Positions 1,510-51,200 of a stretch of 64,000 nucleotides of DNA are shown in pieces. The notes under the pieces are model-generated. The model was not told where the DNA came from. It saw only the letters and a program-made list of their open reading frames with translations, and ran no database searches. Source of the DNA: Marsupella aquatica (lineage: Eukaryota; Plantae; Marchantiophyta); the NCBI GenBank assembly GCA_973895155.1, contig OZ316899.1, forward strand, positions 14,883,934 through 14,947,933, given 5' to 3'. The position numbers and the translations under genes are program-made. Each line of letters starts with the position of its first letter. Within the stretch, counting starts at the first letter, position 1.

Positions 1510-1975
1510 GCTATGTAGATTCTGACTATGGACAAGATCTGGACTGAAGGAGATCAACAACAGGGTACATGTTCACACTTGGCAGTGGATGCATAAGTTG
1601 GAGGTCTACTTTGTATAAGTGTATTGTTCAGTCTACTACATAAGCGGAGTATGTTGCAGCAAGGAAGTAGCAAAGGAAGCTATTTGGTTGGATAGACTTA
1701 TCACTGAAATGAGATTGTCACAGGGGAATGTGAAGCTCCATTGTGATAGTCAGAGTGCGCTCCACCTTGTTGTGAACCAGGTGATGGACAGTAGAGTGAA
1801 GCACATAGACGTCAGGTACCATTTTATCAAACAGGCTGTGTCTGATAATTTGTTTGAGCTAGTCAAGATAGACGGTAAACTCAACTCAACTGACGCATTT
1901 ACCAAAGTGATTCCTTCGGAAAGTTTCTCTAGAGATCGTGATGTGCTACAGGTTTTGCAATTGCGTCACAAGTAA
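1510..1975 (+). pseudogene. Ty1/copia RNase H fragment
   Basis: YVDSDYGQDLD*RRSTTGYMFTLGSGCISWRS ... KEAIWL ... LHCDSQSALHL ... RVKHIDVRYHFI ... DAFTK. Confidence 0.9.
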
Positions 1976-1999
1976 GGGTTTTGCTTAACATTTACTGTA

Positions 2000-4900
2000 A
2001 TTACTGATATATGCCTTTGCCCAGACAAAGCATACACACAACACCAGTTACTCGCGGTAAAATCAGAGGGGAAAGACTACATTTACTCAACGAAGAATCA
2101 GTTTACATAGTTGACTCGATTTCTAAGGGGGTCAACGGGCCTAAGGCAGTCGATGCCCAGTGTCTACAAGGTCCCGCCCCGCAATTGCCCAGCAAGCTCG
2201 ACTCTGGCTCTCACTCCTTAGCGCACTCTGACCCTGCTCAGGCCGGGACTCCCCATGCCTCGCCTTTTCTTGCGCTGAGATAACTAAGCCTTCTCCCCCT
2301 CCCATAGCGGAAGGGGAAGCCTAAATACTACATTCCGGAACGGAGCCGGAAGATACTACCTCCCTAGGGTAATGCCTACTGACTAACTACCTTCTGACTA
2401 ACCAGCCGCACTACCTCTGACCGGCTGACCGTCTGACCGGCTGACCGTCAGTGGTAAGGGGCGCTGACCGGGGTGGCAGTGGCTAAGTCTACTGACCAAA
2501 ATCTAGTCCGTCGATGGACTCTATCCTACGTCGGCTAATCCTAACTGATCCTGTCCTAATTCTTCTTACTACACCGCTAATTGGCGTCTAATGATAGCTA
2601 TTCTGTCGTTAAGCCTAATCAAAAAGATGTTGCTGACTCAACTACCTGGCGCGGCGCCAGCTCACACCCTTTGCTAACCACCCCTTACGTGCGTGCTATG
2701 GTCGGGCCAGGGTTTGTCCCCTTGTCGGGGCGAGACCTCCAGCCGCCTTGATCAGAGGTGGGCCCAGGTCTTGCCCGCTGGAGGACGAGCAGGGTAATGC
2801 GGTCCTGCAAGGCCTTGTTATCCTATACTGCCTCCTCTACCTTGTTCGTAGCTTCATCAGCCTCGGTCTGGAGCCGTGCTACCTCTAGGCTGAGCTGGCC
2901 GATGGAGTCACGATGGGTCTGGTTCTGTGCCAGCAATTTATCCCGCTTGGCAGAGAGACAAGCCACTTGTTGAGCTGACTACAAGAGTTGGTTATTGAGG
3001 TCGGTCAGGCTGGTAACCCGAGCCGAGGATTCTGAGCGCAACTGAAGTACGGTGTCGTCCAGCTTCTTGAGATCTGCTTGCCCCCCGCTCAACTCCTGGT
3101 TTAGTCCATCCCGCTGTTCAACGGTGCGGACTAACTTTTCACGGCAGGTAGTGGCCTCCTCTTCAAGGTGTTCTACTAGCATTTGGAGGCGCCCAATCTT
3201 GTTCCCCTTTGCCATGAGTTCCTCCTCCAAGCGGCTTACGATCCGTGGTTGGTGCTCTAACATGAAGAAGGTTGGTTGAAAGTACGCCGAGACCTGTTGC
3301 CCGATGTACGTCGCCAGCTCCCCTGACATAGTCTGGCTAAACTTCTGGACCAGGTCGTAGGCCATGGTCCCTGGGGCTACTTGGTAGTCCTCCATCCTCT
3401 TGGGCACCGATGGTTCCTCGGGCGGGGCGACGAGATCCTCCGTGGTCTGCAATGGGGAGGGGAAGGTTTCTTCAGGGGGTGGAGGGATTGGGGGTAGTTG
3501 TACCAGGGGCAGCGGAGGCTTGACGGAAGGGGGTGGTGGAGTATTAATCGGGGCCATGGGCTTAGAGTTTGCCCGAGGTGCGGTTGTTTGCTCGCTCGTG
3601 GTCGCCTCCTCCAGAGCGGGGGTGACATTAGTCGGGGCTGAGGTGGCCATGTTCTTTCCCCTGGCCTCTCGCCGCGCTTTGTACCAGGCGAGGATGATGG
3701 CAATGTGACTTCCCAGGTAGGTCCTTCCCCTGATAGCCATACCTCCTTGAGCCCGCTTAAGCTCCCCCGAGATAGTCCGCGTGGTCGGGTTTCTTGATCG
3801 CCGTCTAGACTACCTCGGGGATGCGGATTACCTGTAATAAGTTAGGTTGTTGATTATCCAAGGGCCGTTGGGTCTGGTTGGTCCGGGGGTTGGTCGGGGC
3901 AGGTGCAGGGGCGGTGTTGGTTTGCGTTGTCGGCTTGGGGGCCGGCGTCGTCCTTGCCCTTTTGAGAACGCTGCTCAAGCTATGGACTAACACACTCGGA
4001 ACCCGAGGAACACTTGGTGTTGTTCACGGGACGGACTTGGGACCGGTTCGGCGGTAGGTCGGTGGTCATCGGCTGAGGGGCTGGGGGTGGTGTCGGGGTA
4101 GCCATATCCCAGTTGAAGGCATTGGAGCTTTCCCCGAGGAACGTAAGATTGTGCGCCGCTTCCCGTTGTCTGCTGATGTCTTCTTCACGCTTCTTGGCTG
4201 CAATCTGCTGGTCGATGTATCCCGGGATTTTGTCAAACTCCATTGGAGTCAGCCTCTAGCTGCCCCTCAGCCTAAGGAACTTTGCGGGGACTTCAAGAAT
4301 CGCCTCTGCTACCGATCTAAACCCCTCCTTGCTGATATATAACTCGGTGATGTAGTCCCACAGCTTGTTGTAGCTGGAATCCTTGGTGATGGCTGTCTTC
4401 TCACAGTTAACTTGTGCTACCTTAGCCACCAACTTTGCGTACCTTTGTTCGTAAGCGGCTTTCTCGGGGCAAGAATACCAGTAAGTCTTGGAAGACTTAC
4501 CCGTTCCCGCCCGACAATTTCTCTTGCTGGTGGCGGCCTTACTTGCCCTGACTAAATCCCGCCACAATCCGCTCTTGCCCTTTGATAATTTCCTTGTAAA
4601 AGTTAGCTCAATTCGAGCAAAAGGTGAGAGGGAATGGCAGCGTCCACGAATTCTGAAAGGTATGATCGAGAAAATGGGCCGCAGCGCCATCGACTCAGCT
4701 TTTATGGGGGGTGCCAGGGTGAGCTTGAGCGTGAGAAGGTGAGGCCGTTTTGGTCATTGATAGTGGCCCAAAGTTGGGTGTCTCGGTCCAAGCGTGATCT
4801 CCTAACAGATTTTTACTCTGCCGCCGCCACTGTACCTTGGTCAATCGTAATAATCCCCTTTCCTTAATTCATAATCATTTAGTCAACTAACCTACTCCTA

Positions 4901-5023
4901 ATCTATTCATAATGGTAAAGATGGCTATTCGTGCTACTCTACACTATGGCTACGGTCCTAATGACCGTATAAGTCCTAATCTAGGACCCGCGTTTGGTTA
5001 AGTAACACGTTATCCGTGTCACA
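2000..5023 (-). repeat. 3' LTR of gypsy element (>3 kb, distal end truncated), containing an ORF
   Basis: Starts TGTGACAC at 5023 (minus), 3 nt after a purine tract. Distal part repeated upstream of gag/PR. Homologous in content to TSD-bounded units 9519-13518 and 48223-51927. Confidence 0.7.
2700..4690 (-). pseudogene. LTR-borne accessory ORF (coiled-coil C-terminus), degenerate, central domain deleted near 3780
   Basis: GRTYLGSHIAIILAWY ~ GKAYFASHIEIILEWY; VAPGTMAYDLVQKFSQ ~ FVPGTFLNELLGDFSH; EAILEVPAKFLRLRGS ~ EALLRLPDEVFNIPGT of the 824-aa ORF. Confidence 0.8.
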
Positions 5024-8000
5024 TAGCTCCCCACTCAAGTGTGAAGCGTCCTCGTGAACATCATTACGCTTGTCCTCCTGGTGAAAGTACTTCTTCACAC
5101 GATCGTAACTAACTCGATTGAGAAAGAGGTCATCGGCGTACGTTGATAGCTGTAGGGATCCGTTCGGGTAAATCTGCTGGACAATAAAAGGCCCCAGCCA
5201 GTGTGTGTGCAACTTTCTTGGAAAGTACATGTACCTGCTATTGTACAACAGGATGAGATCTCCCTTAGCGACGTCCACCTGGCGCAGTCCTTTGTCATGC
5301 TATTTCTTTGTTGCTTCCTACTTTGCAGCCACGCGTCGCGACGCCCACAGCCTCTTTTCTTCTAGATTGTCAATTTGATATGCTCGATTGGACAAACTAG
5401 CATCCTCTGGTAACCTATGGCGGATGCTCACCCGCGGAGTCTCAACTTTGAACTCGACGGGTACGAGCGCATGTTGTCCGAAGACTAAGAAATACGGACT
5501 ATGATTTGTAGTAGTCTTAAATGCCAAATTGTATGAATAGACCGCCGCAAAAATCTTGTCATCCCAGTCCGTTTTGTGGGCGGCTACGGTTTTGTTGAGG
5601 ATTTTTCCCACAATGCCATTAGCCCGCTCCGCTAGTCCGTTACATTTGGGGTGATATGGAGTAGTCTTCCTGTGTTTGACGAGGTAATGGTTAGTCAGTT
5701 TTTCGACCATTTCGTTCAAAAAATGAGTCCTGCGGTCGCTGACTAACTCCAAGGGGGGTCCAAAATGGGTGAAGATCTGTTTGTACAAGAACTTGGCGGT
5801 GGTGGCCGCGTCATCTTTGACCGTTGCCCGGGCCTCTACCCACTTAGTTGAATAGTCGATAGCAAGAAGAATGTACCGGCAATGCCGACCTCGGGTTACA
5901 GGAGTGAATGGCCCAATATAATCAATGCCCCATTTCTCAAACGGGGCAAGAGGAAAGATTGGGGTAAGAGGGTGATTACCCGATCTGCGGGGTTTGCCCG
6001 CGTGTTGACACAAGTCGCAACCTTGGATGAAATGGGCTACGTCATGATGAAGCGTAGGCCACCAGTAACCTGCGTCCAAGATCTTGTGAGCCGTGGTTAC
6101 TGGGGTGAAGTGTCCCCCTGCTTCCTCCTCGTGCATAGCTCGCATGACAATTATCATTTCATTATACTCTAGACATCTGCAAATCTTCCCATCAACGCCT
6201 TCCTTATGTAGATGTGCGCGTATCATCATGTACGATGCCACCTTATGCAGGAAGACTGATGCGGCCTCCTGGTTAATGTTACTTGGAATGCGGGCAGTTA
6301 AGAGAAAGGTGATTAGGTCCTCGTACCACGTTGGTTGGTCCGTTTCCACGCGGAATAACTCTTCATTAGGAAATGCATCATCCACAGGTGCTTTGTCCGA
6401 TTCCCCCTCAATTCTTGAGAAGAAGTCCGCATTCACGTGTGCCTTCCCAGGTCGTACCCTGACTTTGTAGTCAAATTCTTGGAGTAGTAGGACCCAAGAA
6501 GCTATTCTCCCCGTCAAGTTGGCTTTGTTTACCATGTACTTCAGGCTGTCATGGTCAGTATGGAAAACTACCTTATATCCCAATAGATAATGGCAAAAAC
6601 TTTTACACGAGTAGATGATCCCCAAGGCCTCCCGATTGGTGGGCAAATAGTTTTTCTCTGTTGCAAACAGTTGTCGGCTTGCATAGTAAATGGGGGGTGG
6701 TGGCGTTTCTCGTCGTCCATTTGGCTCAGGACTGACCCGATGCAAAACCCAGATACGTCGACATACACATGGAACTCCTTGTTCCAATCGGGGGTAGTCA
6801 AGATCGGAGCCATAGTTAGCCATTTTTTTAGTTCGTCAAAGGCTGCTACTCGTTGGGGAGTCATTTTGATGACTGCGTCTTGCTTCATCATTTTTGTGAG
6901 GGGTAGGGCTATTTTGGCAAAATCCTGAATGAATTGCCGGTAGTACCCTACGCAGCCTAAGAAGGATCGCACCGCCTTCTGGTCTGTTGGGTAAGGGACA
7001 TTCATCCATGCGGCCACCTTTTCTTGGTCCACCTCGATCCCTCGGTTGGATACTCAGTGTCCTAGCAGCACTCCTTCTGTTACCCCAAAGAAGCTTTTAC
7101 CTGGGTGTAACTTCAAACCTACTTCTTGGCATCGCTCAAAAGTCCGCCTCAGGTGTTCTAGGTGTTGAGCGATTGTTTCGAAGATGGCAAAATTGTCTAT
7201 GAACACCTCCAAAAATTCTCGTAAGAAATCATGAAAAATATTCATAATGATTTGCTGGAACATAGCCGGGGCATTGCATAAGCCAAAGGGCATCCGTCTG
7301 AACGCGTAGGTTCCCCACTCCGTTATGAACGTGGTTTTGAGCTGGTCCGATAGTCTGATCCAAATCTGGTTATAACCCGAATATCCATCCAGGAAGGTGT
7401 ATACCTCATTTCGGGCTACCATGTCAAGAACCATATCCGTGTAAGGAAGTGGGTAATGGTCTTTCTGAGTGGCATCGTTGAGCTTCCGGTAATCCTGGCA
7501 TATTCGAATCTTAGGTTTACCATCGGGCCCTACCTTCTTAGGAACCACCACAATGGGGGACACCCATTTGCTAGATAAGACGGGGTCCGCCATGATCAGT
7601 TGATCTAACTCCTCCTTTACCAAGATGGAATGTCTTGGATTTAGTCTTCATTGTCTCTCTTGGACGGCATGAGCACCCAAGTTCAGATCAATGACGTGTT
7701 TGCCGTAGGCCGGTGAAATTCCGGTTAGGTCTCGGTGACTCCATGCAAAGACGTCCTCATACTCTGATAGGAGTTCTTGGATAGCCTTTTCCTTCGGGGC
7801 TCGTAGGCCATAACCCACGTTGAATGTCCTCTCCCTCCTTGTGGTGTACTTGCTATAGTGCTCCTTGCGGATTACATCCACGTGGTCTCTGGTGGCCCGG
7901 TCAAGATGGTGTTTCAATTCCTCGAGTCGGGTGCCATCGTAGACCACGGGTTCCCAGACCGTCGGTTGCTTTTTGGGGAGCTCCCTGGGTTCTTCCTCCA

Positions 8001-9390
8001 TTACGGACGGCACCTCGGGGCTCCATGTAACTTTCTTTCTTTTGAGTGGAGTGGTAGCCATGGTAGCGCTCTCCTTGAGTATACCCGACACGGTGCCCTG
8101 GCCAACGACCTCCGTAGGGCTCGGTAGTACGGGGGATTCTTGACCCGCTACTTGCTTATCACTTAATGGCATCCCTGGCGCCTCGGTCGGGGCTACTGGT
8201 CTGGGCTGGTTTAGAATATGGGCCTCTCGAGTGGCATTTACCCCAAAGACTTCCTCTTCGTCAAGCCAAGAGATTAGCTCCACCATATTTACCTCTTCTT
8301 CTGAGATTTCCTCCTCCAAGTCATATTCTTTGGGACCCTAGGGTGTTTCGCCCTGATAGTCCTCTTCCTTCCATGATACCGTCGTAGTTGGGTTACCGAA
8401 TTGTAACTCCTTCTTTCCCCAGTCAGTAATGACTCGGGCACCGTATAATCAGGGTCTGCCCAACACTACTGGGTAAGTCGACAGACGGACTGGTCGCATT
8501 ACCAGGTAATTTAGAAAAAACTTGAGGCCTCCAATCCACGTGGATATCTTGGTCAACGTTCCCAACGGCATGATTCGGGCACCGTTTGCTAATCGAATGG
8601 CGCGGGCCGTAGGTTGATATGAGGTATATCCCAACCTCACGGAAGTGTCTTCTGTCGTGATATTTACTCCGGACCCGCCATCTACCGGTACAAACTGAAC
8701 AGTACAGCTTGCTATCTCAATAGAAACCTCAGGCGCCCCTAAGTCCTGGTAAATCATCATACAATCGGCTAAGGTGCTTACCCAAGGGAGCCGTCTCCGT
8801 CTCTTTCCTATTAACATCTCCTTGAGTTGTTGCCGATACTTTGGGTTATCCTACAACAGTTGTCTGACAGTGGCCGTGGTTGCACAATTTTGAACGTCCT
8901 TTTTGATGTCGTATTGGTTAGTCGGTGGGGTCGCAGATTTTAACGCTTCTGCTGCCTTGACTTGAGCTTCCAAGGCAGTCTTAGCTTCCTCAGCTTTTTC
9001 TGCCGCCTTAGCATCGGCAATATCCTTTTTAGTGGATTTTTTGTGCTCTTGGGCCTCATAGGCTTCCAATTGCTTTTTGACCAGCTCCTCTACTCGCGGA
9101 TAAAACAACTTTGGGTGATCCCGCTGGTAGTCCTCCTGCTCTTCCAATTCTATCAGACTATGCTTATCCGCGACTACGTCTCTTTGCTTGTCATCTTTCC
9201 AAGCCCGTCCTTCTGCGTACTTGTCCTTCTTACGGGATGATCGGGTAGAAACGGGGTAACATTCATCGTCCGCGTGCGCTCCCGGTTGCTCGATTGCTTC
9301 TATTAGATCGATCCACTCGATGGCATTGTCCTGCCATTCCATCATTACCATCTGCACCACCGCATCCGTAGTCGGTGGTGTTGCGGGTAG
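4976..9390 (-). pseudogene. gypsy gag C-terminus, protease, reverse transcriptase, RNase H, integrase (stops and frameshifts)
   Basis: PR VPVDGGSGVN; RT ICQDYRKLN, FLDGYSGYNQI, MPFGLCNAP, VFIDNF; RH FHVYVDVS, HTDHDSL; INT H..GGH..C..C, GIDYIGP, VSDRRTHF, GLAERAN, WLGPF. Confidence 0.93.
5027..5036 (-). promoter_or_regulatory. Polypurine tract of gypsy element
   Basis: GAGTGGGGAG on minus strand just before TGTGACAC, after the integrase GPF region. Confidence 0.6.
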
Positions 9391-9518
9391 AGTAGACTCG
9401 ACTTCTAAGGGGGTCAGCGGGCCTAAGGCAGTCGATGCCCAGTCTCTACAAGGTCCCGCCCTGCACTTGCCCAGCAAGCTCGACTCTGGCTCTCACTCCT
9501 TAGTGCATTCTGACCCTG
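9391..9518 (-). repeat. Remnant of gypsy 5' LTR (part 1; part 2 at 13519-13676)
   Basis: Near-identical to 2110-2236; fused directly to late gag by a deletion. Confidence 0.85.
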
Positions 9519-10576
9519 TGTCACGTCATCGGCTGCGGCCTTAACTCAGACTTCAGCTTAGACGGGCACATCCCTCGTAAATCTGAGGGTTCGGGCAGGA
9601 AGGGAAGCACGTAATGCACCTTATTCTTGTAAACTAGCGCTAAGTGCGCATACTGCTAAATACGGACACCTCCTAGGTATGGTATGTGTTCCGCCGCCGG
9701 AACGTACCTTAGTCGATAGCAGGATCGACCCCGGCTTAAGGGCTTCTAAGCCTTCGTGCTGTCCGCCTTCGATCCGGATTCGATGATACAGGTCCTCAAC
9801 CTGTGCTCGCAACCACTTACCCGTAGGCTGCACCCTGTGCACGTCTCGGGTAGTGCGTTCGGCCTGGCGTTGCCACCCATATACGAGAAACCCACACACA
9901 TACACGCGCACATGCATACAATCTCGATTTACACGAAGGAAAATGATGGGAAAGGATTTTACTACAAAGGGAACATATGCGTACACTTAGTTGACCCGAC
10001 AGCCCCGGAATGAACAGGTTCAAGGCCGAGGGTGCACATTACAACGGAGCCCGGCTCCGCACTCGCCCGACGAGCTTAGTCCTACCCCCTCCCCTTGGTA
10101 CTCTTTCATTCCCAGAGGTCGAGACTCCCCGCACATACCGCGGACACCCAACTCTGCAACTAAAAACCCCCCTTGCCTCTACCGAGGGGTGCACTAAATA
10201 CTAAGGGACGGGGTGTCCTCTCGCCGAAGATTTGCTGACTAAGGTCCTAACTAAGCTGACAGTCAGGCTGGAAAATGGCTGTGTCTTATTAGAAGATCCT
10301 AATCTACGCAAGCTGGACAGCACGGCAGCGCTGCTGTACCTAAGGCAGGTGCCTGTCCCAAGAGCCTGACTAAGCCAGTCCTAATCCTAATCTATTCCTA
10401 CTCCGCTGCTAATGTCTGGCACGCTTGCCAGAGCCGCCCGAATGGGAGCGGCCATCCCGCTACCTTCGAAGCCTGTCATTGTCCGCCTTGAGGAGCTGGA
10501 CCTGGTCTAGCAGAGATTCGTTCTCTCGCCTCGCCGCGTCCGTCTCCTCTGCTGCCTCTTGACAAGCCTCCTCCAG

Positions 10577-13051
10577 CTACTGGGCGTCATTTGTCAGTTT
10601 ACCCGCGAGCTGGTCCTGCTTCTCGGCCTCGGTTTGGAGCCGCGCCACCTCGGCCTGTAGCGTGGCTATCTCCGCCGTGTCCCGTTGGGCCCGTTCCTCG
10701 GCCTCCTCCAGGTCTTTCTGCCAGGTGACAGTTTGATTCTTCAAACTGTCAATCTGGTTCCAGAGTCGTGTAATCTCGGCCTCGTTCCCAGCTTTGGTCT
10801 GTTCGGCTAGGACGGTAAGAGCGTGCGCCTTTGCTAACAACTCATCGGCGGCTGCAACCTTGGGTCGTAGTTGTAGAAGCTCAGCCTCTTGAGCCGCAAC
10901 TTCGTTCTTTAGGTGCACGGACTCCACCCGGTACCGCTCTATCCTCTGAAGGGCCTCTGACTGGGCCCGACCTGCCTTTACTGCGGCAACCAACTCCTGA
11001 TTGAAGAAACAGGCTACCTTCCGGGCCATGAACTCCCCGGTATCCCGGGCAATTTGATGAGAGAAATCTCCCAGAAGCTCGTTCAGAAATGTACCCGGTA
11101 CGAAGAGTTCCGGGTGGTCCAGGTTGTGCCTGTCCGGAGTTGGGCACGGGCAGACATCAACACGCGCGGGGGCCGGGGCAATGACGTCCAGCCCTGGGGA
11201 CGTAACGTTGGAAGGGGCTAGAGTGTCCTCCTGCAGCAATGTCCGGTTCTCCGGAATAGCCACCGGTGGGTCTTTGGGAGACCCTGGCTCGGGTAAGACC
11301 TCCGTCGTACCGACTTCTGTACTTAGCCCGGCTTGTTGGGTCGCATCAACGGTTGCGACGACCGACCCATCCGGTACCTCTTCGGTTATGACTACAACTA
11401 CTTGTGGAGGTGGGGTGGGTGAAGCTGGCGTGTCCGCTGGACTTCGGGCCTCGGGCTGGGGCCGTCTCTCCAATGCCGGGAAAACCCACCTAGCTGGGAC
11501 CAGCTTTGTAACGTTGACACGGGGAAGGGTTTGTCGATCAAACCGGGCATACCACTCAAGAATGATCTCGATGTGGCTAGCAAAATACGCCTTCCCGCCA
11601 ATGTACAGCGTCTTCCTTCGCCGCTCCATCTCTTCATGGAATTTCTTAGCGAAGTACGACGCCCACCTCCTAGGTCGATAGTTCTCGACCTGGATAACCT
11701 GGGCGGCGGAGATCTCCCCCCGGGGTTCCATCATGTGGAGGGCGTACCTCTGGAACTCCAGTCGCTCAGCTATCTCGGGGATGAGGCAGGTCTTCATCAC
11801 GAACCCGTTGTCCACTGCTCCCTCTGAGGGAAAACTTGAAGATTGGTACTTGGCTCCCTTGCCCCCGGGAGCCCGTGATTCGACTCGATGGTCACCTTCG
11901 GGTAACCCGAAGATCATCCTGAGCCGTTCTTCCGTGAGGGGCATACTCCTTCCCCGCAGCCGAGTATGTTGACGCGCGTCATCATAATTCCTAACGAACT
12001 CCGTCATGTCCTCCCCGTAGTACCTGCAAGTGTTCCAGGGGAGGGAGGCAAGGTGCTCGAATCCCTGAGTCTTCAGGTACACCGCATGCTTGGGATGGAG
12101 GATGTTTTTGTGAACGTTTTCCCCCATGCGGTGCATCGTCACCTTGGCCACGGCTACCGTGGCCAACGGTAACCCGGATGTAGTGGCGGATTCCTTCCTC
12201 TTCTTCCCCCGTGACTGGCTCGGGGAAGGTGACACCTCCCCATCCTCCCGATCGGGCCTGGGTAGTGCCACTGCCGTTAGTAACGGGCCCGGGTCGGCCA
12301 CGGTCACCATGTTGTCTGCCGGGGCCGCTCCTGGGGTCAGAGCAGGGGGTGGGGACGATATAGTGTCGGCCCCCTGAGCGCTTGTTCCTCTGGGCCGCTT
12401 GGTCAAGGGTAGGGTAGCCTCGTCGTCATCGCTAAGATCCACAGCGTTGATGACGGAGCGTACTTGTGCTGGCCGGGCGATCGGTGGTGGGGTTTGGCTA
12501 GGCTGCGGCTGAGGCTGAAGCTGAAGCTGAGCCTGAGGTTGTATGGGTACGGGTACGGGTACGGGTACGACTGAGTTGGTCATGTTGGTTGCTGGCCGAG
12601 TTCCTATGAAGCTCTGTAGGTGCTGGTAGAAGTTCTCCAAAGCGAGTGCAGACGACCTTGTCGAACGGGTAGTGCTGGACTCGCTGTTGATGATAGCCCG
12701 AACCTGAGCAGGGATGTGGTCAAAGTGATGTTGTTGCAAGTCGATCGTACCCGGGATATTGAAGACCTCGTCCGGAAGCCGAAGCAATGCTTCCCAGAAC
12801 CCGATATATTTGTCTCCATTGAAGAAGTACTCGGATACCTCTGCTGGTCGATAAAGCTCGCTCTGAGACGGGTAGTCAAAGTTAAGGATGTAGTGGTGTC
12901 GTCCTGCTAGGCGGATGGCTCTCTCGTACTCGCGTTCGATTTCGTATCGACGCGGGTTGGCGTGTTTCAATGAGTCGGCCAAGTGCCTTCCGGTAGATAG
13001 GAACTGCGTCCAGAATTGAATGGCCAAGCTGGAGAGGATCGTGTGCGACAT
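10577..13051 (-). CDS. 824-aa LTR-encoded protein: N-terminal domain, Pro-rich linkers, conserved globular domain, C-terminal coiled coil (ancestral stop probably 10460-10462)
   Basis: Uninterrupted ORF with homologs in other units of the window. The frame continues 38 sense codons past TAG 10577, and the paralog near 49290 has CAG at this position. Confidence 0.8.
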   Translation of the reverse strand: MSHTILSSLAIQFWTQFLSTGRHLADSLKHANPRRYEIEREYERAIRLAGRHHYILNFDYPSQSELYRPAEVSEYFFNGDKYIGFWEALLRLPDEVFNIPGTIDLQQHHFDHIPAQVRAIINSESSTTRSTRSSALALENFYQHLQSFIGTRPATNMTNSVVPVPVPVPIQPQAQLQLQPQPQPSQTPPPIARPAQVRSVINAVDLSDDDEATLPLTKRPRGTSAQGADTISSPPPALTPGAAPADNMVTVADPGPLLTAVALPRPDREDGEVSPSPSQSRGKKRKESATTSGLPLATVAVAKVTMHRMGENVHKNILHPKHAVYLKTQGFEHLASLPWNTCRYYGEDMTEFVRNYDDARQHTRLRGRSMPLTEERLRMIFGLPEGDHRVESRAPGGKGAKYQSSSFPSEGAVDNGFVMKTCLIPEIAERLEFQRYALHMMEPRGEISAAQVIQVENYRPRRWASYFAKKFHEEMERRRKTLYIGGKAYFASHIEIILEWYARFDRQTLPRVNVTKLVPARWVFPALERRPQPEARSPADTPASPTPPPQVVVVITEEVPDGSVVATVDATQQAGLSTEVGTTEVLPEPGSPKDPPVAIPENRTLLQEDTLAPSNVTSPGLDVIAPAPARVDVCPCPTPDRHNLDHPELFVPGTFLNELLGDFSHQIARDTGEFMARKVACFFNQELVAAVKAGRAQSEALQRIERYRVESVHLKNEVAAQEAELLQLRPKVAAADELLAKAHALTVLAEQTKAGNEAEITRLWNQIDSLKNQTVTWQKDLEEAEERAQRDTAEIATLQAEVARLQTEAEKQDQLAGKLTNDAQ

Positions 13052-13152
13052 TCAGAGGAGATAGTAGTGGCGACTTAGAGCGAACGAGAGAGCTAGGGTC
13101 GAAGCTGGCGCGTGGACTGATGGACTGGTGCACTACAAAGGGTTGGCTCCCC

Positions 13153-13159
13153 TTTTATA
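13153..13159 (-). promoter_or_regulatory. Candidate TATA box of LTR/ORF
   Basis: TATAAAA ~100 bp upstream of the ORF ATG. Same motif at the same 359-bp offset from the 5' terminus in unit 48223-51927 (51562-51568). Confidence 0.6.
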
Positions 13160-13518
13160 CCTTGAGGGCTTGTTGATCCCCCGACGTCCCCTCGATGCCC
13201 ATAGGCTGAACCGCTCACGCTTGTGGTGTGCCGGCCACTCCGCCGGTCTGAGTCAGCGCGTGTCAGTGGCCGCTTCCTTAAGTTTGTTATACGGACCCGG
13301 GGGAGGGGCCCCTCCACGCTCGTAACCCGAGTGTGCAAATAGCGACCAGCCGCCAGTCCGAACCTGAATTCCCCCTTATTGCCTAATGATATCCTACCCA
13401 TAATGATTACCTAAATACTGTCGTTATGCTAATAATAGCGGCCTAAGACACTCCTAACGCGCGTGCCGAGCGCAGTTAGACCGAATCACTCATTAACCGC
13501 CGTACCGGTGGCATCACA

Positions 13519-13676
13519 CCCTGCTCAGGCCGGGACTCCCAGTGCCTTGCCTTTTCTTGCGCTAAGATAACTAAGCCTTCTCCCCCTCCCATAGCGGAAG
13601 GGGAAGCCTAAATACTACATTCCGGAAAGGAGCTGGAAGATACTACCTCCCAGGGTAATGCCTACTGACTAACTAC
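13519..13676 (-). repeat. Remnant of gypsy 5' LTR (part 2)
   Basis: Near-identical to 2232-2390. Confidence 0.85.
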
Positions 13677-13784
13677 TGTAAGTAGTGGGTAATTCCAAAA
13701 GTAGGAAGAAACTGAAAATTTTTGAATTTTCTATGGTGTTTAAACTATAATTATTGCTAACATAGTGGAGATAGCATTCTGTCT

Positions 13785-13950: not shown

Positions 13951-14138
13951 GTTGGCGACCGGGGATCGCGATGTCTTACGGATACATTCAACGAGACTTA
14001 GAAATGGAATGGCGAGCATGCATTGAAGCAAAGGCAAGGTAGACCTCGGGCGCTCACTCCTGACTAAATCCCTGCCTCCTCCATTGATCCTTTTGGCCTC
14101 CCCATTTCTTTGCGCTACTACAAGAAACAATTTGAGCT

Positions 14139-17329: not shown

Positions 17330-20300
17330 TGTGGTGCGTCCCTTGCCTCCCCAAACCCAAGAAACCCCCTTGGGCAAGCCGATTCCCGCAGGTTTCGTCC
17401 TTGGCGAGGCCGTTTCCGCGGTTTAGCGGCATGGGACGCTGCTAATCTATTATTAATATTTTACACACATATAATGGACAGATCCTTCATCGGGTCATGA
17501 GATACTTAGCCGGCCTATTCTAGTCCCTCCCTTGTATTCCTCTCCTGGTCCTCCATTAGGTATGTTTGGATTCCGCTGCCGGAATGATCCCCAATTGGCT
17601 TGGTTAAGCCGCTAAGATCTCTCTCAGCTCGACACATCCAACTCTCACTCCCCTGCTTACTTCTATTCCTCTATTAGTTGATGTGGGCACTCTTCACACA
17701 AGTTAATGCGACACACAAATAGCAAAATGACTCCTTCTGACTGAGTTATACCATGCACTTGCCATACAAACAGTAATCTCATACATAAGCTCTGCGAACT
17801 AAGCCGTGAGGCCAACTCTATTCAGTTCTTAAGTATGAGGAAACATGAATATATACAAGGGTCACTGTATAACTAACCGAGAGCTTCTCTTACTACTTGA
17901 TCCCAGCCCTGTTGGTGCAACTAAAAACTTGCTAAAGAAGAGGCCCTGAACTCCCCGTAGCCCAGGTACTTATCCTGGTTGTGGATCCGCCCGATTCCTT
18001 GCAGCGTAAGCCTAAACTACCTATTGTAATCTACCTAACTGTAATCTACCTAAGTACAGTGAGGCAGGAGCACAAGTGTCGTCCACACCAGTGGATCCGA
18101 AATCCCACTAATCTAAGTGTCAGGGCCGTCTCCTGATCCTGATCCTAAGTCTAAACTTGGAGATCAGCGCCCGCCCTGCCCACTCACGCCTCCTACCTCC
18201 ACGTCCGCCCTCCCTAAAAGGGACGGCGCCCTTACACCGTCACGACACCGGTGGCTGGTCCTCAATGGACGCCCCCAACGCTTCCTCCGCAACCACTACC
18301 GTTGGTCCGTCCTCTGACAAATTACTTGCCCCTGACCGAGTCAACTCTTCATCGGCCTGACTGGGTCCACCCTCGGCTTCGGCCTCAGCATCGGTCACGG
18401 CCTCTGCTACGGCTACGGCCTCTACGGCATGTTCTAGTGGAGGACCTAGTACCTCGGCAGCATTACTGGTTCTCCCATCTTTGGCCTTGCCATCTTCACT
18501 TCCTAGGACTGGTGGATCCACTACCGTGCCGATGCCGGAGGATGGTGCCGGGTTTATCTTCTCGGTCACAATCGCTTGAGAAGCCGTATAACTCCCAGAC
18601 CTAGAAGGTTTTCGCTTCTTCTTCTTCCCTATTTCGACAGCCGGTTCCTTCCCCTTGCCACTTACCTCCAACACCGGGGTGAGTGTTACGGCTTGTCCTT
18701 TGGCCAATACTACCCCTGGTAACTGGGTTCCACCAATTGGAGTTGGACCTGATGAAGCCAAGCATTTAAATACTGCGGCTTGTGTCTTCAACCGCTCCGT
18801 TTGGTTGTCGGCCCGCCGCTGTAGGTTCTCCATCTTCCTCGTGATTTCCTCCAACTCCTCATGGGTCTCATCCAGGTCCTTGCGCGCCTCCTCCAGCTCC
18901 TTATTGGCTTCCTCCAATTCTCTTTTCAAGGTAGCCCTCTCCTCCTGGGTTGCTCTTAGCTCCCTGTCGAGCTCTACGACGACCACAGACTCCATCTTAT
19001 TCATCTTGGCATAAGTCTGGTCGAGCTGGTCGTCCTTTTCACGCAGGTCGGCCTTGAAGCTGGCCGTCAGGGACGCAAGCTCCTGCTGCAGCGCAATAAT
19101 CCCTTGATAGGATTTCCCTAACTCTGCTTCCTTCTGCTCAAGGGCTCCGTGGATATCTTCAAGCTCTCCTTTCAATGCCCTCTCCCTTCTCTGGTTCTCC
19201 GCCATGGCCCGATTGTTGGTTGCTAAGTGGGCTTCCTCTGCATCCCTTAGCTCCCGCTTCCATTTCTCTCTTTCTTTGACTGCGCCGGCCAACTCTCCTT
19301 GGGTCCGAGTCAGTTTATCTTTGATAATCTGATTATCAGATTGAGTGGTATCCAACTGCCCCTGCATGATGTTTAGCTCATGCCGCTTAATCCGCAATTC
19401 ATCTTGGGCTTTCTTGGCCGCCTGCAGGTCTTCCACCTTGGCTTCCTTCTCCCTAAGCCGCCGGATGACCTCGTCCTTCTTGCTTCTCTCCAAAGCCACC
19501 GCTTCTTCTAATTGGTGCTTTTCCAACATCTCCCTCTGGAAAAAGGGTCCCTGCTCCAACTCCTCCCCAAAGATGCTGAGCGCCAGGTCCCCACACATCT
19601 CCCCGTACTCCATGGCTCTATCCTTAGCATAGGTGGAGTAACTAGAAGTCATCGGCATCAACCACCGCGGCCTCTGCTCCCAAGCCGTCTTGCGGATTTC
19701 TTCTACGGTGGCAAGAGGGTTGCTTCTTTTCTTGGCAAGCCGCTTGATGTCCTCCGGCCAATCTCCTCCTGGTAAATCCTTCTCCCTAGCCAAGGCTGCT
19801 CTCTCTTCCTCCCTAAGTCGCTCCTGAAATTCTTGTGCCGTCTGCTTTATGCCGTCAAAGCTCGGGGGAGCAACCTCTGGTGGGGGAGACTCGGGGTTAC
19901 TCTGCTGGGTGGGGTCCCCTCGAACTACTCTTGGAAGTGTGGGGATGAATCGGCCACAGGTCCTTACTCCTGGAACATGATGATCCGACCCATAGCCGGA
20001 GTTATCATTGCTGTAGTCTTCCATTGCCTCCTCCACTACTTGGACTCCCGGCTTGTGTCCTCTGCCTCTGATTCGGGGCTTGAGGCTCCCACGTACATTC
20101 GCACTCCCGGCTTGTGTTCCGGCCTTAATCTCTCCTTGGTTCCGGTAAAGGGGTCTTCCCTTCTGAGTCGGCTTAGGTCGACTTCTGGGGCAGCGTCTTG
20201 TATCGGTGCCGTTGCCGTTGCCGTTGCCGGAACCGTTCTCTTTTCCTTCTCCAGTAATTTCAGCAGATTTTGCATGCCTGGTTGCTGCATCGGCAAGTCT

Positions 20301-20365
20301 TCTTTCCTTGGCCTAAACACCTGCTCGATCGTCGGACTGTCGGGCTCGTTGGGCTTCTCTGGTGC
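17330..20365 (-). mobile_element. Truncated copy of the ORF-bearing LTR family of 53659-58726
   Basis: Terminus TGTGGTGCGTCCC at 17330 is the reverse complement of the 58726 terminus; collinear homology with ~55230-58726. Confidence 0.85.
18240..20320 (-). pseudogene. C-terminal part of LTR-encoded coiled-coil protein (598-aa open segment 18240-20036)
   Basis: Long E/K/R/L-rich heptad region; homologous to 55271-57826 fragments. Confidence 0.8.
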
Positions 20366-40692: not shown

Positions 40693-40716
40693 ATTTATCT
40701 TTGGCATAGCAGGAGG

Positions 40717-41982: not shown

Positions 41983-44421
41983 TGTGACGCCAATGACATG
42001 CTCCTTATTCTATAATCTGAGTAAGTAGGTTGCTGTATGCAAGGAGTAGCTATTGATATTGCATAACAATTAGCAAGATGGCAAGAATAAGGGCAATCAT
42101 GGCGTTGAGTAGGGAAATAAAAGCTATGTCGCGGGTGGTTGCCGACCATATCTCTTTCAATATGTCACCAAATCCGGATCTATAAAGAGCATTGGAAATA
42201 TCTGGTCAAGGCGAGTAAAATCGATATAAAACACTCTCAAAACGGAGGTGTATTAGGAAAGATATGATCTTATTAGTGTGACGGGTTAGTGTGTAACCCT
42301 GGATAGCGGATACGGATAGAGGTTAGCGGACACGGATAGCGGATACGGATAGAGGTTAGCGGACACGGATAGCGGATACGGATAGAGGTTAGCGGACACA
42401 AATAGCGGATATGGATAGAGGTTAGCGGATACAGATACCAGATAGTGGCTAATGGCTAGCGGATTTAGATTGGGGTTAGACTAAACCCGGGACAACGGAT
42501 AGCGGACAACGGACACGGACAACGGATACGGACAACTGACACGGACAACGGACACGGATAGCGGACACGGACACGGATAGTGGCTTAGCCCGAGGCCACG
42601 GGTTAACTCTTCTAAGGTTAGATAGGATAGCTAGGCTAGCCAAACTCGGGTTAGCTATGTAACTCGGGTTAGCGTAGCAATGAGTACCCCCTCTCGGTTG
42701 CGGGGGCATAACTTTCTGTGTATTTTTCCAAATCGGCTATAATTGACCTCGTTGGAAAGAGGAGCTCAAGCCGCTTCCAATGCTGCTATCCACGCAGCAA
42801 ATGGTTGAATAGAGAAATTGGGAGAGGAGGCGCAAGCTCGCAAAAACCATGGAGGAGGGCCAAATCCGAAGTACATAGCCAATTCGAGATAGAAATAAAG
42901 TTACGAGTTAGGGTTCAGTAGCTGGAGATTGTGGCGGCTGTGTTAGGGCTGGGATGGGGCTCCAGGAGCGTAGTATCCACCCATTTGGGCTCAGTATGAG
43001 AGTATATAGAGCATCCCCCCGGTAGAGGCAAGGAGGGGGGGGACTTCAGTTGTGTGATCTCACTTAGACTGAGCAGCAGGGAGGAGCTCTGTGCAATCAA
43101 GGCTGGACTTGGACGCTGTGTGTTGGGGAGAGCTTGGTTGTGCTATTACTCAGGGAGTAATCAGCCAAGCTTCACAGCTGCAACGGGTTGTTAGGTTTGC
43201 GAGCTGGATTGTGGCTCTTTCTAGTGGGCAGCACAACTGGGTTCTTTTCCCCCGATACAGAGCCTTGGTGATAGGTGATGTATTGGTGATTGTAAACTGT
43301 GGGGAGGATGTCAATTTGATTTGTGGTGAGCACATTAGGGAGGCTGAGATACTGATTGAGGGGCAGCAGAAGGAGCATTTACAGTTTGGTCTGGCAAGGC
43401 TACGTGATCCATGGGGAGTCCCGGCCTTTGTCTGGTGGAGAGCACTAAGGGATTTATGGCCAGGGCTGAGCTTGCAAGGCAATCATGAGGCCGGGCCTCA
43501 TTGCAGTCTGGGGTAGATCGCCGTTAGGCCTGGTACCAGCTTTGAAGTCGAGTCAACTATGCATGCGTAACTGGACGTTCTGAATTGGAGGTGTGAGATC
43601 TGTATGTGCCCCCAAGATTGAAGTGCAGTGAAGGAGGTTGGGTTCAGGATTGAGTTTGCAAGGCAAGTACGGGATTGGTTTGAGTCCAATCTGCCGTCGC
43701 AATCTGGAGTGAGTCGGGCTCAGGTTCAGGATTGAGTTTGCATGGCAAGCATGGGGCTTGCGGGGCAAGCACATCACAATCTGGAGGAGACAGCCTTCGG
43801 CCCTAGTGTTCGGATAAAGTGTTCTCAGTGAACTATTGTGCACATCTTTGAATCTAATTGAGTTTTCCTCTCAGGCCTCATTTCTCTCATGGATGTGTGT
43901 GTGTGAGGCAATCTGAGTGTATGATGGGACTAGCAGCGCCACTGAGAGGTGTACAGGGTGCATTGAAGCGGGCTGGGTGAGGACTATCATAGCTCTGATT
44001 GCTGAGAGTGGAATGGCAGAGTGGTGGGGCAATGGCTTAGAAGTCCCTAAGCCGGGAATCAGTCAGGAGCCACTGGTTTATGGGTACATTCCGGCGGCGG
44101 AATAGAAACATACCTATGACAGTAAGCATATGTATAGACCTATGCGCACCGTAGTGCTAGGCCCTGTGTGTATGGGCCCGATATGAAGACCCCTTCTCAC
44201 CAGAACTATCATGAGCGCAGATCTGATCCCCAACCTTGGTTCCTTGGGATTGAGCTTGGGTGATGTGTGATAGAGTCTTGCTATGATAGTCTGGTGTTAA
44301 GGGCATAAATTGGTGTTTACCGGCCTTCACAACATCCCTTCGTGATCCTCAGGTACAAGGAGATGGTTTTGGCACCCATAGTGACGTTTTTGGTGTTAAG
44401 ACCCATGTCAATCGCGTGACA
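41983..44421 (+). mobile_element. 2439-bp solo LTR (gypsy-type) inserted in LINE ORF2
   Basis: TGTGACGC...CGTGACA; TSD ACTAT/ATTAT; removal restores the frame (ERFCQA-LYLPELQSEAE). Confidence 0.88.
42301..42580 (+). repeat. 33-bp tandem repeat (~4 copies) followed by CGGACA/CGGATA array inside the solo LTR
   Basis: GGATAGCGGATACGGATAGAGGTTAGCGGACAC repeated. Confidence 0.9.
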
Positions 44422-48222: not shown

Positions 48223-51200
48223 TGTCACACCCAAATGATCCGTCCTTACATGGATTTTGGCTTAGGCTGGCATAAACTTTGTGAATATTGAGGGTTTGGG
48301 CAAGGAGGGATGTGAAAACTGTACTTTATTCTAGTAATATAGCGCTAAGTGTGCCCGACTCTACCTATACACGTATCATAGGTATGCTTTGTATTTTGCT
48401 GTCGGAACGTACCTTAAGTTGATAGCTCAATTGACCCCGGCTTAAGGACTTCTAAGCCTTTGTGCTGTCCGCCTGTGATCCAGATCTGATGATACGGGTG
48501 GTCAACCCGGGCTCAGAACCACTATCCACAACTAACACCCCGTGCACTCGCATAATGCATTTGGCCAGGCGATGCTTACCCGTATACAAGATTGACAACT
48601 ACGACTAGACTTCACAACACAAAATCTTGATTTACATGAAGGAAATGATGGGGAAAAGACTTTACTTCAGAATCCGTCATACACATACACACGATTGACT
48701 TGACTTTCTTCTGAACTAGCAGGCCCAACGGCAACAACTTGTACACTACAACGGAGCCCGGCTCCGCACTCGCCCGACAAGATTAGTCATACACTCACCC
48801 CTTGGTGCTCTCTATTCATGAAGGCCAGGACTCCCCGCAGATCCTATGGATACCCGGTTTTGAACCTAAAATCCCCCCCTTGCCTCTACCGGGGGGTGCA
48901 CTAAATATTGTCTAAGGGCTGCGGCCCGGAATGGCCACGATGCCAAATCTAATTTATCCTAAGTTCATCTAATTGTCAGGCCAAAAAATGGCGCGTCCTA
49001 TACTTAGATTCTGCTCTAATTGGGTTGGCCGGACAAGACAATGTTGCTAGCTAGTTTTGGCGTTTGTCTCCAGCGTCCGTCCTTCCAATCTAATCCTGTC
49101 TCTACTCTAAACCTACTACCCCACCGCTAATGTCTGGCACGCTTGCCAGACCCACCCAAATTGGACCTGGAACAGCCGTCCCGCTATCTTCTCAAACGGT
49201 CCATGTCTTGCTTGAGTAGTTGGACTTGATCCAAGAGAGGCTTGTTCCCTCATTTTGTTGCTTCCGTCTCCTTTGTGGCCTAACATGCCTCTTCCAACTG
49301 TTGGGCGTTGCTCGTCAATTGCGCCACTAGTTGGTCTTCCTTAGTGGCTTCTTGTAGAAGCCATGCCACCTCTACCTTCAGGGCGTCAACCTCCGCCGCA
49401 TCTCTCTAGGCCCAAGCTTCGGCTTCCTCCAAGTCCTTTTGCTAGATGACAACTTGTCCTTTCAAGCTATCAATTTGTGTCCAAAGCCACGCAATCTCTA
49501 CATCCTTTACAGCTCTGGCTTTTGCGGCCAAGGCCGGCTTGGCTTTGGGTTTGGTGATCTAGGCCAAGGTGGTTGCAAGCTGGGGCCGAAGAAGTTGAAG
49601 CTCAGTCTCTCGGGCTGAGGCTTCATTTAATAGTTGGGTTGCCTCACCTCAATACTGCTTTATTCTTCTTGTGGCTTTGGATTGTGCATGCCCTACCCTC
49701 ATTGCTGCAACCAGTACTTGGCTGAAGAAGTACGCCACCTTCCGGGCCATAAACACCCCCACGTCTTGACCAACTTCTACAGAGAAGTTGCCAAGAAACC
49801 CATTTAAAAATGTACCCGGAGCAAAGAATTGTGGGTTCATAGGTTGTGGCCGCTGGCTCTTGGGCACTGGCCTTCCTCCATCCAATCAGGGGTGGGGTCA
49901 GGCAAATCCACCTCTGGGATGGGGGCAGACAAATCCAGCTCTGGGGTGATTAGAATAGGGACAGGTGGATCTGCTAAGGAGGGGGGTTCCATTGGTGTTG
50001 GCGTGGGGGATGGAGGTGCTTCCTTTGTGACCAAGGCCTCCGGCTCCGGGCCGGCTTCCTCTTGGTTGGGCGTAATGGTTGCCCGCTCTTGAATCTGGGC
50101 GTCCAAGGCCGTGATGATTATTGTGTTTGGCAAGGAAGATGAAGCCCCCCCAGCTGACTTTGGGATCGGGGCGGGGCTAGGGGCCACGGGCGCCAGGGCC
50201 CAGGCCTTGGGTTGGGCTCACCTCGCTTGAGATGGGAATACCCACCTGGCCGGGGCAAGTTTGGGCTTGTTGCACCAGGGAAGGGTGCGGCAATCAAATG
50301 GGCATACCACTCCATGATGATTTCTATGGGACTTGCTAGGTACGCCTTTCCCCCAAGGTACAAAGTCTTCCTTCATCGCTCCATCTCCTTGTGGAACTTC
50401 TTGACAAAGAATGAAGCCCACTTCCTAGGCCGGTAATTATTGACCTTAATCACTTGGGTGGCGGATTTCTCTCCTCGTGGATCCATCATTTGGAGCGCAT
50501 ACCGTTGGAACTCAAGCTGCTCCGCTACCTCTGGGATGATGCAAGTCCGCATTAGGAAACCATTGTCCATGGACCCCTTGGGCAAGAAGCTAGCTCAGGA
50601 ATGGTACTTGGCTCCCTTGCCCCTTGGTGCCCGCAACCCCACCCAATCCTTTCCTTTGGGTAAGCCAAAGATGAGCTTTAACCGTGCTTTGTTCAAGGAC
50701 ATTACTCGTCCGTGCGCACGGGTCTATTGATAGGCTTCGTCAAAGTTTTGAATATCTGTCATATCCTGCCCGTAGTACCTGCAAGTGTTCCAAGGGAGAG
50801 TGGAGAGGTGCTCAAACCCTCGGGTCGTTAGGTAACATGCATGCTTTGGGTGGAGAATGTTTTTGTGGACATTCTCCCCCATCCAATGCATGGTCAATTT
50901 GGCCACCGCGACGGTGGCTACAGGTAAGCCGGATACCAAGGTTGGCTCCTTCCGCTTCTTACCCCGAGAATAGTTCCCGGGGTGACTTGTTGAGGGGGAC
51001 ATCTCCCCGTCTTCCTTCTCTGGTGGAGACCGTATTGCTACTGCCGTACATTAGTACTGGTGCCGGGGCTGCAACCTTCACCGTGTTGTCTACCAGGGCT
51101 GCCTCTCGGGTTTGGGCTTGCTGGGATGGTGGCGCGGTACCCACCATGCATTGATGGGTACCCGGTGGATTGCGGACAAGGGGAGGGGGCTCCTCATCCT

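What the first reader, a model, noticed from the sequence alone, without database searches (positions are those of the whole stretch)
9519..13518. Giant protein-coding solo LTRs: gypsy families that encode a large protein inside the LTR
Seen: three separate units (9519-13518, 48223-51927, 53659-58726) have TG...CA ends and perfect 5-bp TSDs (CCCTG, TGGTC, TCTAC), lack gag/pol, PBS and internal LTR pairs, and each holds one long ORF. Here it is an uninterrupted 824 aa. A homologous ORF lies immediately downstream of the PPT of the gypsy pol (5023 down to ~2000), and sequence beyond it is repeated upstream of gag/PR, so it is LTR. Established: extra ORFs of plant non-chromoviral gypsy elements (Athila, Tat, Ogre) normally sit in the internal region, and LTR-encoded genes are best known from retroviruses (MMTV sag, HIV nef overlap). 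Inference: the accessory gene is part of the LTR, so each solo LTR left by recombination is a self-contained gene cassette.
Basis: partly seen in the sequence, partly recalled or inferred. Interest (0 to 1): 0.9.

Follow-up and report, generated by a model that had tools for sequence, protein, structure and literature searches.

The report
Giant LTRs carrying their own gene
In what is likely a liverwort genome, 4-kb repeats that are likely the end repeats (LTRs) of gypsy retrotransposons each hold one large gene or its broken remains, predicted to fold like a transposon anti-silencing protein, so a lone LTR left behind would be a self-contained gene cassette.

Summary
The three units are real: TG…CA ends and exact 5-bp duplications. 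Only U1 (9519-13518) has an open 824-codon frame; U2 and U3 hold broken homologues. Placement in the LTR is well supported, not proven. A collinear homologue (N-terminal domain, end of middle domain, non-coding tail) starts at PPT|TGTGAC right at the end of a gypsy integrase (5023). Three Calypogeia integrases end in the same junction peptide. In a related metagenome contig the base after the PPT starts a 9-bp complement of the LTR end before the PBS, with the ORF behind it. No full element with twin 4-kb LTRs was seen: no genome is held and the window has no PBS. The pol is Athila-like, closest to liverworts; other relatives keep the ORF internal. The ORF evolved under purifying selection (dN/dS 0.16 and 0.36). 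Its middle domain models at pLDDT 93 and best matches VANC21, the anti-silencing DNA-binder of Mutator transposons (Z 7.8, next 2.5; moderate). An ORF-less 2.4-kb relative with motif arrays lies at 41983-44421. Expression and function are untested. Verdict: new variant of a known kind.

The parts
9519..13518 (-). U1: 4000-bp solo-LTR-type unit, TGTGAT...GTGACA, duplication CCCTG, inserted in the 5' LTR remnant of gypsy element G
10580..13051 (-). U1 ORF, 824 codons: N-terminal helical domain, Pro-rich linker, VANC/PMD-like domain, linker, coiled coil; ends at a stop that most other copies do not share
12662..13051 (-). N-terminal domain (aa 1-130), shared with G3 and liverwort homologues; model pLDDT 81, no clear fold match
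11522..12184 (-). Middle domain (aa 290-510); model pLDDT 93; best structural match VANC21
13152..13159 (-). TATA-like box at +360 of U1 (same offset in U2, +318 in G3), ATG at +468; promoter role inferred
48223..51927 (-). U2: 3705-bp unit of U1's family (67-71% DNA identity), duplication TGGTC, ORF broken
53659..58726 (+). U3: 5068-bp unit (about 4.7 kb without a ~0.38-kb insert near 55626-56002), duplication TCTAC, distant family, ORF broken, middle domain found by profile
17330..20360 (-). U4: 3' part of a second U3-family copy (83% identity), 690-codon open stretch, 5' part lost
1972..5023 (-). G3: unit collinear with U1 in the 3'-LTR position of gypsy G; starts TGTGAC; ORF broken and most of the middle domain missing; end cut off by copia sequence
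5024..5036 (-). Polypurine tract overlapping the end of the integrase frame
5037..9390 (-). Gypsy G coding remnant: gag C-terminal part, protease, RT, RNase H, integrase; several stops; no PBS, gag N-terminus missing
9391..13676 (-). 281-nt remnant of G's 5' LTR (13676-13519 plus 9518-9391), 94-96% identical to G3 2390-2109, split by U1
41983..44421 (+). U6: 2439-bp ORF-less relative, TGTGAC...GTGACA, flanks ACTAT/ATTAT (4 of 5 match), inserted in a LINE; tail homologous to U1-U4; CGGATA/CGGACA tandem arrays in its first kb

Best explanation
U1, U2 and U3 are likely solo LTRs, 3.7-4.7 kb long, of Athila-like gypsy retrotransposons of a liverwort, and each holds one large accessory gene or its broken remains, predicted to encode a VANC/PMD-fold DNA-binding protein that likely helps its own family escape silencing. 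Shown: termini, duplications, ORF layout, the PPT|TGTGAC junction at the end of integrase, collinearity of G3 with U1, purifying selection. Inferred (about 0.8): in this lineage plus-strand priming takes place at a PPT right behind pol. The stretch that holds the accessory ORF internally in other Athila-like elements is therefore copied into both LTRs, and LTR-LTR recombination leaves a solo unit with promoter, ORF and tail. Inferred (about 0.6): the ORF lies in U3 with its own TATA box at +360, and the genomic RNA starts further down, in the last 0.7-1 kb. The alternative is a 3-kb R region. Inferred (about 0.4): the protein binds short motifs in its own family and lifts chromatin silencing, as VANC21 does for VANDAL21.
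For: G3 starts at PPT|TGTGAC and matches U1 in the N-terminal domain (profile built without G3: E 2.8e-6; pairwise score 79, reached by 0 of 500 shuffles). It also matches in the end of the middle domain, weakly in the coiled coil, and in 350 nt of non-coding tail (score 93, shuffle maximum 37). A tail piece of G3 recurs at 94-96% upstream of gag/pol. Three Calypogeia integrases end in QLSGELCE, matching the window's HLSGELCD read through PPT|TGTGA. In L001 the 5' LTR end GCTCCCACA lies 5 nt before the Asp-type PBS and is the exact complement of TGTGGGAGC, which occurs once in 7.5 kb, 87 nt behind the pol stop and after a PPT; the ORF starts 515 nt further on. The same test finds the true LTR start in twin-LTR L014. 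L002 and L003 share the layout PPT|TG, TATA, ORF. Contigs of 4 of 4 runs cover U1 end to end, depth falls at both ends, and 3 of 4 runs hold the empty site. dN/dS is 0.16 (0.11-0.22, 535 codons) for U1/U2 and 0.36 (0.28-0.46, 670 codons) for U4/U3. Fold: VANC21 ranks first in Foldseek (prob 0.98, TM 0.56, E 0.03) and among 48,161 chains (Z 7.8, rmsd 4.5, 200 aligned; next Z 2.5). Atlas leads DUF1985, PMD and ATHILA scored 0.81-0.82. Related internal ORFs hit Transposase_32 below its cut-off.
Against: No full element with two long LTRs was seen, and no PBS follows any unit. G is damaged at both ends. Heads of U1 and G3 do not align above shuffles (23 against a maximum of 32); U2 and G3 only weakly (46 against 36). 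L001 ends inside the ORF, so a second PPT downstream is not excluded, and with the usual 3-nt spacer its terminal match is offset by 2 nt. Close relative L004 has two PPTs and keeps the ORF internal, and G's PPT block looks more like L004's terminal block than its central one, so the route of capture is unclear. U1-type tails do not align with L004's 1-kb LTR. Z 7.8 lies in the range the tool calls common, E is 0.03 and identity is 9-10%. U1 and U2 show no 7-8-mer enrichment of note; only 6-mers in the U1 and G3 tails exceed simulation. U6 shows that related LTRs can lack the ORF.
Confidence: 0.75

Rival explanations
1. The units are a separate non-autonomous class that moves as one linear piece, either Ginger-like or as an LTR-only cDNA integrated in trans, and never flanks gag-pol twice.
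For: No unit is followed by a PBS and no twin pair was seen. TGT..ACA ends and 5-bp duplications fit any gypsy-type integrase (established knowledge).
Against: Terminal complementarity is only a few bases. The ORF has no integrase domain. G3 sits exactly at a PPT behind pol and part of it recurs upstream of gag/pol. The same junction appears in Calypogeia and in L001-L003.
Confidence: 0.1
2. Full elements have ordinary LTRs of about 1 kb (the tail behind the ORF), the PPT behind pol is only a central PPT as in L004, and the 4-kb units are occasional by-products primed there.
For: L004 and L014 have this layout. The only part of G3 seen upstream of gag is tail. The tails (0.90-0.96 kb) are about as long as L004's LTR (0.99 kb).
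Against: No second GGGGAGCTA-type PPT lies between ORF and tail in U1, U2 or G3. Three separate target-flanked units include the ORF, and contigs cover the whole 4 kb without a step at the tail. L004's central PPT is followed by GGATG, not TG.
Confidence: 0.08
3. The ORF is in the LTR, but the protein is not an anti-silencing factor: the PMD-like fold and coiled coil serve particle assembly, nuclear import or target-site choice.
For: The fold match is moderate. Motif arrays are weak in U1 and U2. The function of plant aORFs is described as unknown (PMC7264820). Athila-domain coiled coils are modelled as oligomers (PMC13547354).
Against: The only clear structural neighbour is a sequence-specific DNA-binding anti-silencing protein, and PMD and DUF1985 are reported as structurally alike. 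Motif arrays are present in U6 and in the heads of L001-L003.
Confidence: 0.35

Closest known systems
Athila (non-chromovirus OTA Ty3/gypsy) with a 3' extra ORF (Neumann 2019, PMC6317226; Vicient and Casacuberta 2020, PMC7264820)
   Same: PR-RT-RH-INT order, no extra RNase H or chromodomain detected, 5-bp target duplication, Asp-type PBS in relatives, a sense accessory ORF behind pol with a PMD/Transposase_32-like domain and coiled coil.
   Different: There the ORF is described in the internal region between pol and the 3' LTR. Here it follows PPT|TG and travels with solo units. It also has an extra N-terminal domain found here only in the liverwort-type group.
Long-LTR elements Ogre and Retrosat2/RIRE3/RIRE8 (PMC6317226, PMC3485330)
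   Same: LTRs of 3-5 kb, many solo LTRs, an extra ORF (PMD in 57% of Ogre elements).
   Different: The passages read place their extra ORFs upstream of gag-pol or behind pol and do not place them in the LTR. Ogre has an extra RNase H domain.
VANC21 of VANDAL21 and host PMD proteins MAIL1/MAIN (PMC5735166; bioRxiv 2024.09.27.615353; PDB 9lnj/9lnk)
   Same: Predicted fold of the middle domain, plus a coiled coil; transposon-encoded accessory protein.
   Different: VANC is on Mutator-like DNA transposons of eudicots. Identity here is 9-10%, there is no Pfam DUF1985 hit, and no activity or target motif is shown.
Retroviral U3-encoded genes: MMTV sag, HIV nef overlap (recalled, not checked here)
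   Same: A protein-coding gene duplicated in both LTRs and left in solo LTRs.
   Different: Those genes are a few hundred codons (recalled) and unrelated in sequence. This one has more than 820 codons and sits in a plant retrotransposon.

Membership tests
Solo LTR | TG..CA termini with target-site duplication | tested here: met
   (U1-U3); 4 of 5 bases for U6
Solo LTR | No gag-pol, PBS, PPT or inner LTR pair within the unit | tested here: met
Solo LTR | Same sequence occurs as both LTRs of a full element (PBS after the 5' copy, PPT before the 3' copy) | tested here: inconclusive
   PPT side met for homologue G3; PBS side only in relative L001; no genome held
Athila (OTA) | Ty3/gypsy order PR-RT-RH-INT | tested here: met
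Athila (OTA) | No archaeal-type RNase H, no chromodomain | tested here: met
   Pfam finds no family in 7651-8337 and integrase runs into the PPT; Pfam-level test on a degenerate copy
Athila (OTA) | 5-bp target duplication | tested here: met
   lineage value from supplement
Athila (OTA) | tRNA-Asp PBS | tested here: inconclusive
   deleted in G; TGGCGCCGCTGCCGGGG present in relatives L001 and L004; assignment to Asp recalled and from PMC1142308
Athila (OTA) | Falls in the Athila clade of a reference RT/RH/INT tree | tested here: inconclusive
   no reference set held; integrase tree of 51 fetched sequences only
Athila (OTA) | Extra ORF, where present, internal between pol and the 3' LTR (typical, not obligatory) | tested here: not met
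   ORF follows PPT|TGTGAC in G; met in relatives L004 and L014
Phygy | 4-bp NCGN target duplication | tested here: not met
   5-bp duplications against supplement row
Ginger-like DNA transposon | Long terminal inverted repeats (recalled) | tested here: not met
Ginger-like DNA transposon | Integrase-type transposase ORF | tested here: not met
   no rve hit in the ORF; fold is not integrase
VANC anti-silencing protein | DUF1985/VANC fold | tested here: inconclusive
   top structural hit, moderate score; no DUF1985 row among the Pfam families shown; Atlas lead 0.82
VANC anti-silencing protein | Dense arrays of a short target motif in the element's non-coding parts | tested here: inconclusive
   weak in U1 and U2, clear in U6 and L003
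VANC anti-silencing protein | Sequence-specific DNA binding and family-specific demethylation | not testable with these tools
   needs bench work

The most novel reading that the evidence does not exclude
A bryophyte branch of Athila-like gypsy elements moved a VANC-fold anti-silencing gene into the LTR. Every full element then carries it twice, and every solo LTR, the usual product of host removal, remains a trans-acting cassette that can keep its family unsilenced. ORF-less LTRs with motif arrays, such as U6, would be freeloaders on that protein.
Probability: 0.3. Interest if true: 0.85.

Novelty: new variant of a known kind. Interest (0 to 1): 0.64.

Why it matters
Solo-LTR formation is viewed as a host route to neutralise LTR retrotransposons. 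If the LTR carries an 820-plus-codon gene with its own promoter, removing gag-pol leaves a coding cassette behind. Annotation pipelines would call these host genes: the named homologues are 'unnamed protein product' entries of Calypogeia fissa. Surveys that look for extra ORFs between the LTRs could miss them; one such paper reports that moss Tat-like elements appear to lack extra ORFs (PMC4408406). The VANC-like fold gives a concrete, testable function for the Athila-type 'env-like' ORFs, whose role is described as unknown, in a lineage where a single 4-kb unit holds promoter, gene and candidate targets.

Tried and rejected
No genome is held and the metagenome loci lie in no held record, so the solo-to-full count and the twin-LTR test could not be done. 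What follows U1's 3' end in other copies stays open: the loose ends shown (24 of 1288) included none at 9519 or 13518. No RNA holder was listed, which says nothing on expression. The word-based homologue search for the middle domain found none; HMMER found 43. The domain alignment was too variable for a locus scan. Viral contigs gave nothing for pol. Calypogeia accession test: two near-identical ORF gene pairs (CAM6101869/70 and 6101879/80; 98.8% and 97.6% alike, same truncation; 91-94% to other members) could be twin LTRs or a local duplication. The one RT found on that contig (CAM6102046) is not between them, so this gives no support. The N-terminal domain has no clear fold match (best Z 4.8). 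BFVD gave no match. Rfam gave none. The U1/U2 dN/dS was a script error and is replaced. Of the 40 variant places shown (of 647), 22 lay in the ORF, 11 synonymous and 11 not; the rows are a biased pick and I do not use them. The 'internalORF' labels in the tree were premature for L001, L002, L005 and L013; only L004 and L014 are shown to be internal. The pair 17330-20683 with a 5-bp duplication is taken as chance, because homology to U3 stops near 20360. L054 and L056 domain hits are degenerate and were not resolved. Earlier scan findings: none. Literature: searches listed no paper describing a large ORF inside a plant retrotransposon LTR. The library lacks most subscription journals, and the VANC21 structure paper is not held.
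Full report
Observation. The three units have the stated ends and exact 5-bp duplications. U1 is a proven insertion: its flanks rejoin into sequence that is uninterrupted at 2215-2255, and 3 of the 4 runs laid hold joints that skip it. Duplications alone are weak here (9 pairs among 6156 candidates, 6.9 expected), but the ends coincide with U1/U2 and U3/U4 homology and with a fall in contig depth at both ends of U1 (the tool warns that depth is no copy number). Only U1 has a long open frame, 824 codons. U2 and U3 carry broken homologues, and U3 has a ~0.38-kb insert. U1's stop appears private to this copy. Two more units lie in the window: U4 (17330-20360, U3 family, 5' part lost) and U6 (41983-44421). 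U6 has the same kind of ends, a tail related to U1-U4, no stop-free stretch above 147 codons, and tandem CGGATA arrays.

Host and lineage. The pol at 5-9 kb has gypsy order with no extra RNase H or chromodomain detected. Its best named relatives are Calypogeia fissa (65%) and Riccia (50%), so the window is likely from a liverwort (inference). The 5-bp duplications and the Asp-type PBS of relatives fit Athila rather than Phygy or Tat (PMC6317226: passages and supplement rows). No reference tree could be run.

Is the ORF inside the LTR? (a) Integrase of element G runs into a PPT followed by TGTGAC at 5023, the only exact GGGGAGCTA in the window. The same 9-mer precedes the LTR of the circular relative L004. 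(b) What follows, G3, is collinear with the target-flanked unit U1: TATA-like box (+318 against +360), N-terminal domain (E 2.8e-6 with a profile built without G3), end of the middle domain, coiled coil (weak) and 350 nt of tail (93 against a shuffle maximum of 37). The heads align weakly or not at all. (c) 281 nt of that tail recur at 94-96% upstream of gag/pol, but the remnant lacks the ORF part and the PBS. (d) Three Calypogeia integrases end QLSGELCE, the peptide read through PPT|TGTGA. (e) In L001, PBS, gag-pol, PPT and ORF lie on one contig. The base after the PPT starts a unique 9-bp complement of the 5' LTR end (0.001 expected in the 200 nt behind pol), and the same test picks the true LTR start in twin-LTR L014. 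L002 and L003 share the layout. L001 ends within the ORF, so a later PPT is not excluded, and the match is offset by 2 nt if the spacer is 3 nt. In an integrase tree of 51 sequences, G groups with Calypogeia (support 0.98) and that clade with L001-L003 (0.94), while L004 and L014, with internal ORFs, fall outside (FastTree, distant root, no formal test). The LTR position therefore looks derived. Missing: any full element with twin long LTRs. I put LTR placement at about 0.8.

How it arose (inferred). L004 has one PPT 48 nt behind pol and a second after the ORF (0.03 exact copies expected by composition). Priming the plus strand at the first would put the ORF into U3 of both LTRs without changing the genomic RNA. 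Against a simple switch, G's PPT block resembles L004's terminal block more than its central one, no relic second PPT was found, and the tails do not align with L004's LTR. Transfer of the ORF into U3 by template switching is as possible.

The protein. It has an N-terminal helical domain, a Pro-rich linker, a 220-aa middle domain and a coiled coil; a 906-aa homologue aligns over the whole length (29%). HMMER found 43 relatives of the middle domain at E<=0.001. Of the 22 whose clusters I looked up, 9 are named Calypogeia fissa proteins and the rest are unnamed or 'hypothetical'. dN/dS is 0.16 for U1/U2 (0.12 in the middle domain; dS near saturation) and 0.36 for U4/U3. This reflects selection while the families were active, not in solo copies. 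The profile also hits the ORFs behind pol in L005, L004, L014, L002 and L001 (5 of 6 tested at E<=0.002), and three of those six ORFs hit Transposase_32 below cut-off, tying it to Athila-type ORFs. The AlphaFold model (pLDDT 93) best matches VANC21 bound to DNA (Foldseek prob 0.98, E 0.03; Z 7.8, rmsd 4.5, 200 residues, next Z 2.5), a moderate but isolated match. VANC21 binds short motifs and lifts methylation from its own family (PMC5735166, passages). PMD and VANC are reported as structurally alike (bioRxiv 2024.09.27.615353, passages; PMC13547354, passages). Candidate target arrays are weak in U1 and U2 and clear in U6 and L003. The anti-silencing role is a lead (about 0.4), not a result.

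Comparison. Accessory ORFs with PMD-like and coiled-coil parts are known in OTA elements and are described as internal (PMC7264820, parts 1-2 of 3 read; PMC6317226; PMC4408406, passages; PMC2533021, passages; PMC1142308, passages). Retrosat2 has LTRs over 3 kb and an ORF0 upstream of gag-pol, not placed in the LTR in the abstract and passages read (PMC3485330). PMC7466625 and bioRxiv 2026.09.17.752431 (passages) held nothing relevant. Nine searches listed no report of a large ORF inside a plant retrotransposon LTR; subscription papers, the VANC21 structure paper and bioRxiv supplements were not seen. Retroviral U3 genes are recalled only.

Verdict. A real feature, and a new variant of a known kind: Athila-like elements whose accessory gene likely sits in the LTR. 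The twin-LTR structure, expression and function remain to be shown. Interest 0.64.

Noticed in passing
window 41983-44421 (+): ORF-less 2.4-kb relative of the units (U6) with 33-bp and 13-bp tandem arrays, inserted in a LINE ORF2; its tail is related to U1-U4.
   Followed up: partly
window 13677-17329 (+): Another element beginning TGTAAG that cuts G's 5' LTR remnant. It has broken ORFs with a weak hit to the middle-domain profile (14391-14705, E 0.0016) and ACTCGTAA arrays near both ends. Its right end was not found.
   Followed up: partly
window 55626-56002: ~0.38-kb insert in U3 with short GGGTAT terminal repeats and a 9-bp duplication; looks like a Mutator-type MITE (label recalled).
   Followed up: no
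window 27266-33006 (+): Copia element with identical 147-bp LTRs and a 1321-codon open frame, so a very recent insertion.
   Followed up: no
window 38629-47077 (+): LINE with zinc-knuckle ORF1 and endonuclease/RT ORF2 remnants, interrupted by U6.
   Followed up: no
window 25121-25366 (+): Frame with an RRM-like stretch (RGFGFVQY...) resembling plant SR splicing factors (label recalled); may be a host exon amid the repeats.
   Followed up: no
window 52815-53109 (-): Old fragment related to the 3' end of the units' tails, ending in GTGACA.
   Followed up: no
L004 3700-6600: Circular full-length relative with two exact GGGGAGCTA tracts, one 48 nt behind pol and one before the 1-kb LTR, a 745-codon ORF between them, and a recurring AGCGCTA motif.
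   Followed up: yes
L001 6148+, L002 2389+, L003 2626+: Metagenome contigs of unknown host with PPT|TG right behind pol, CCGGA/ACGGA-rich arrays, a TATA-like box and the accessory ORF about 500 nt in; the layout may reach beyond liverworts.
   Followed up: partly
proteins P0131/P0171 and P0170/P0172 (CAM6101869-80): Two near-identical, identically truncated copies of the ORF ten accession numbers apart in Calypogeia fissa: possible twin LTRs or a local duplication.
   Followed up: partly
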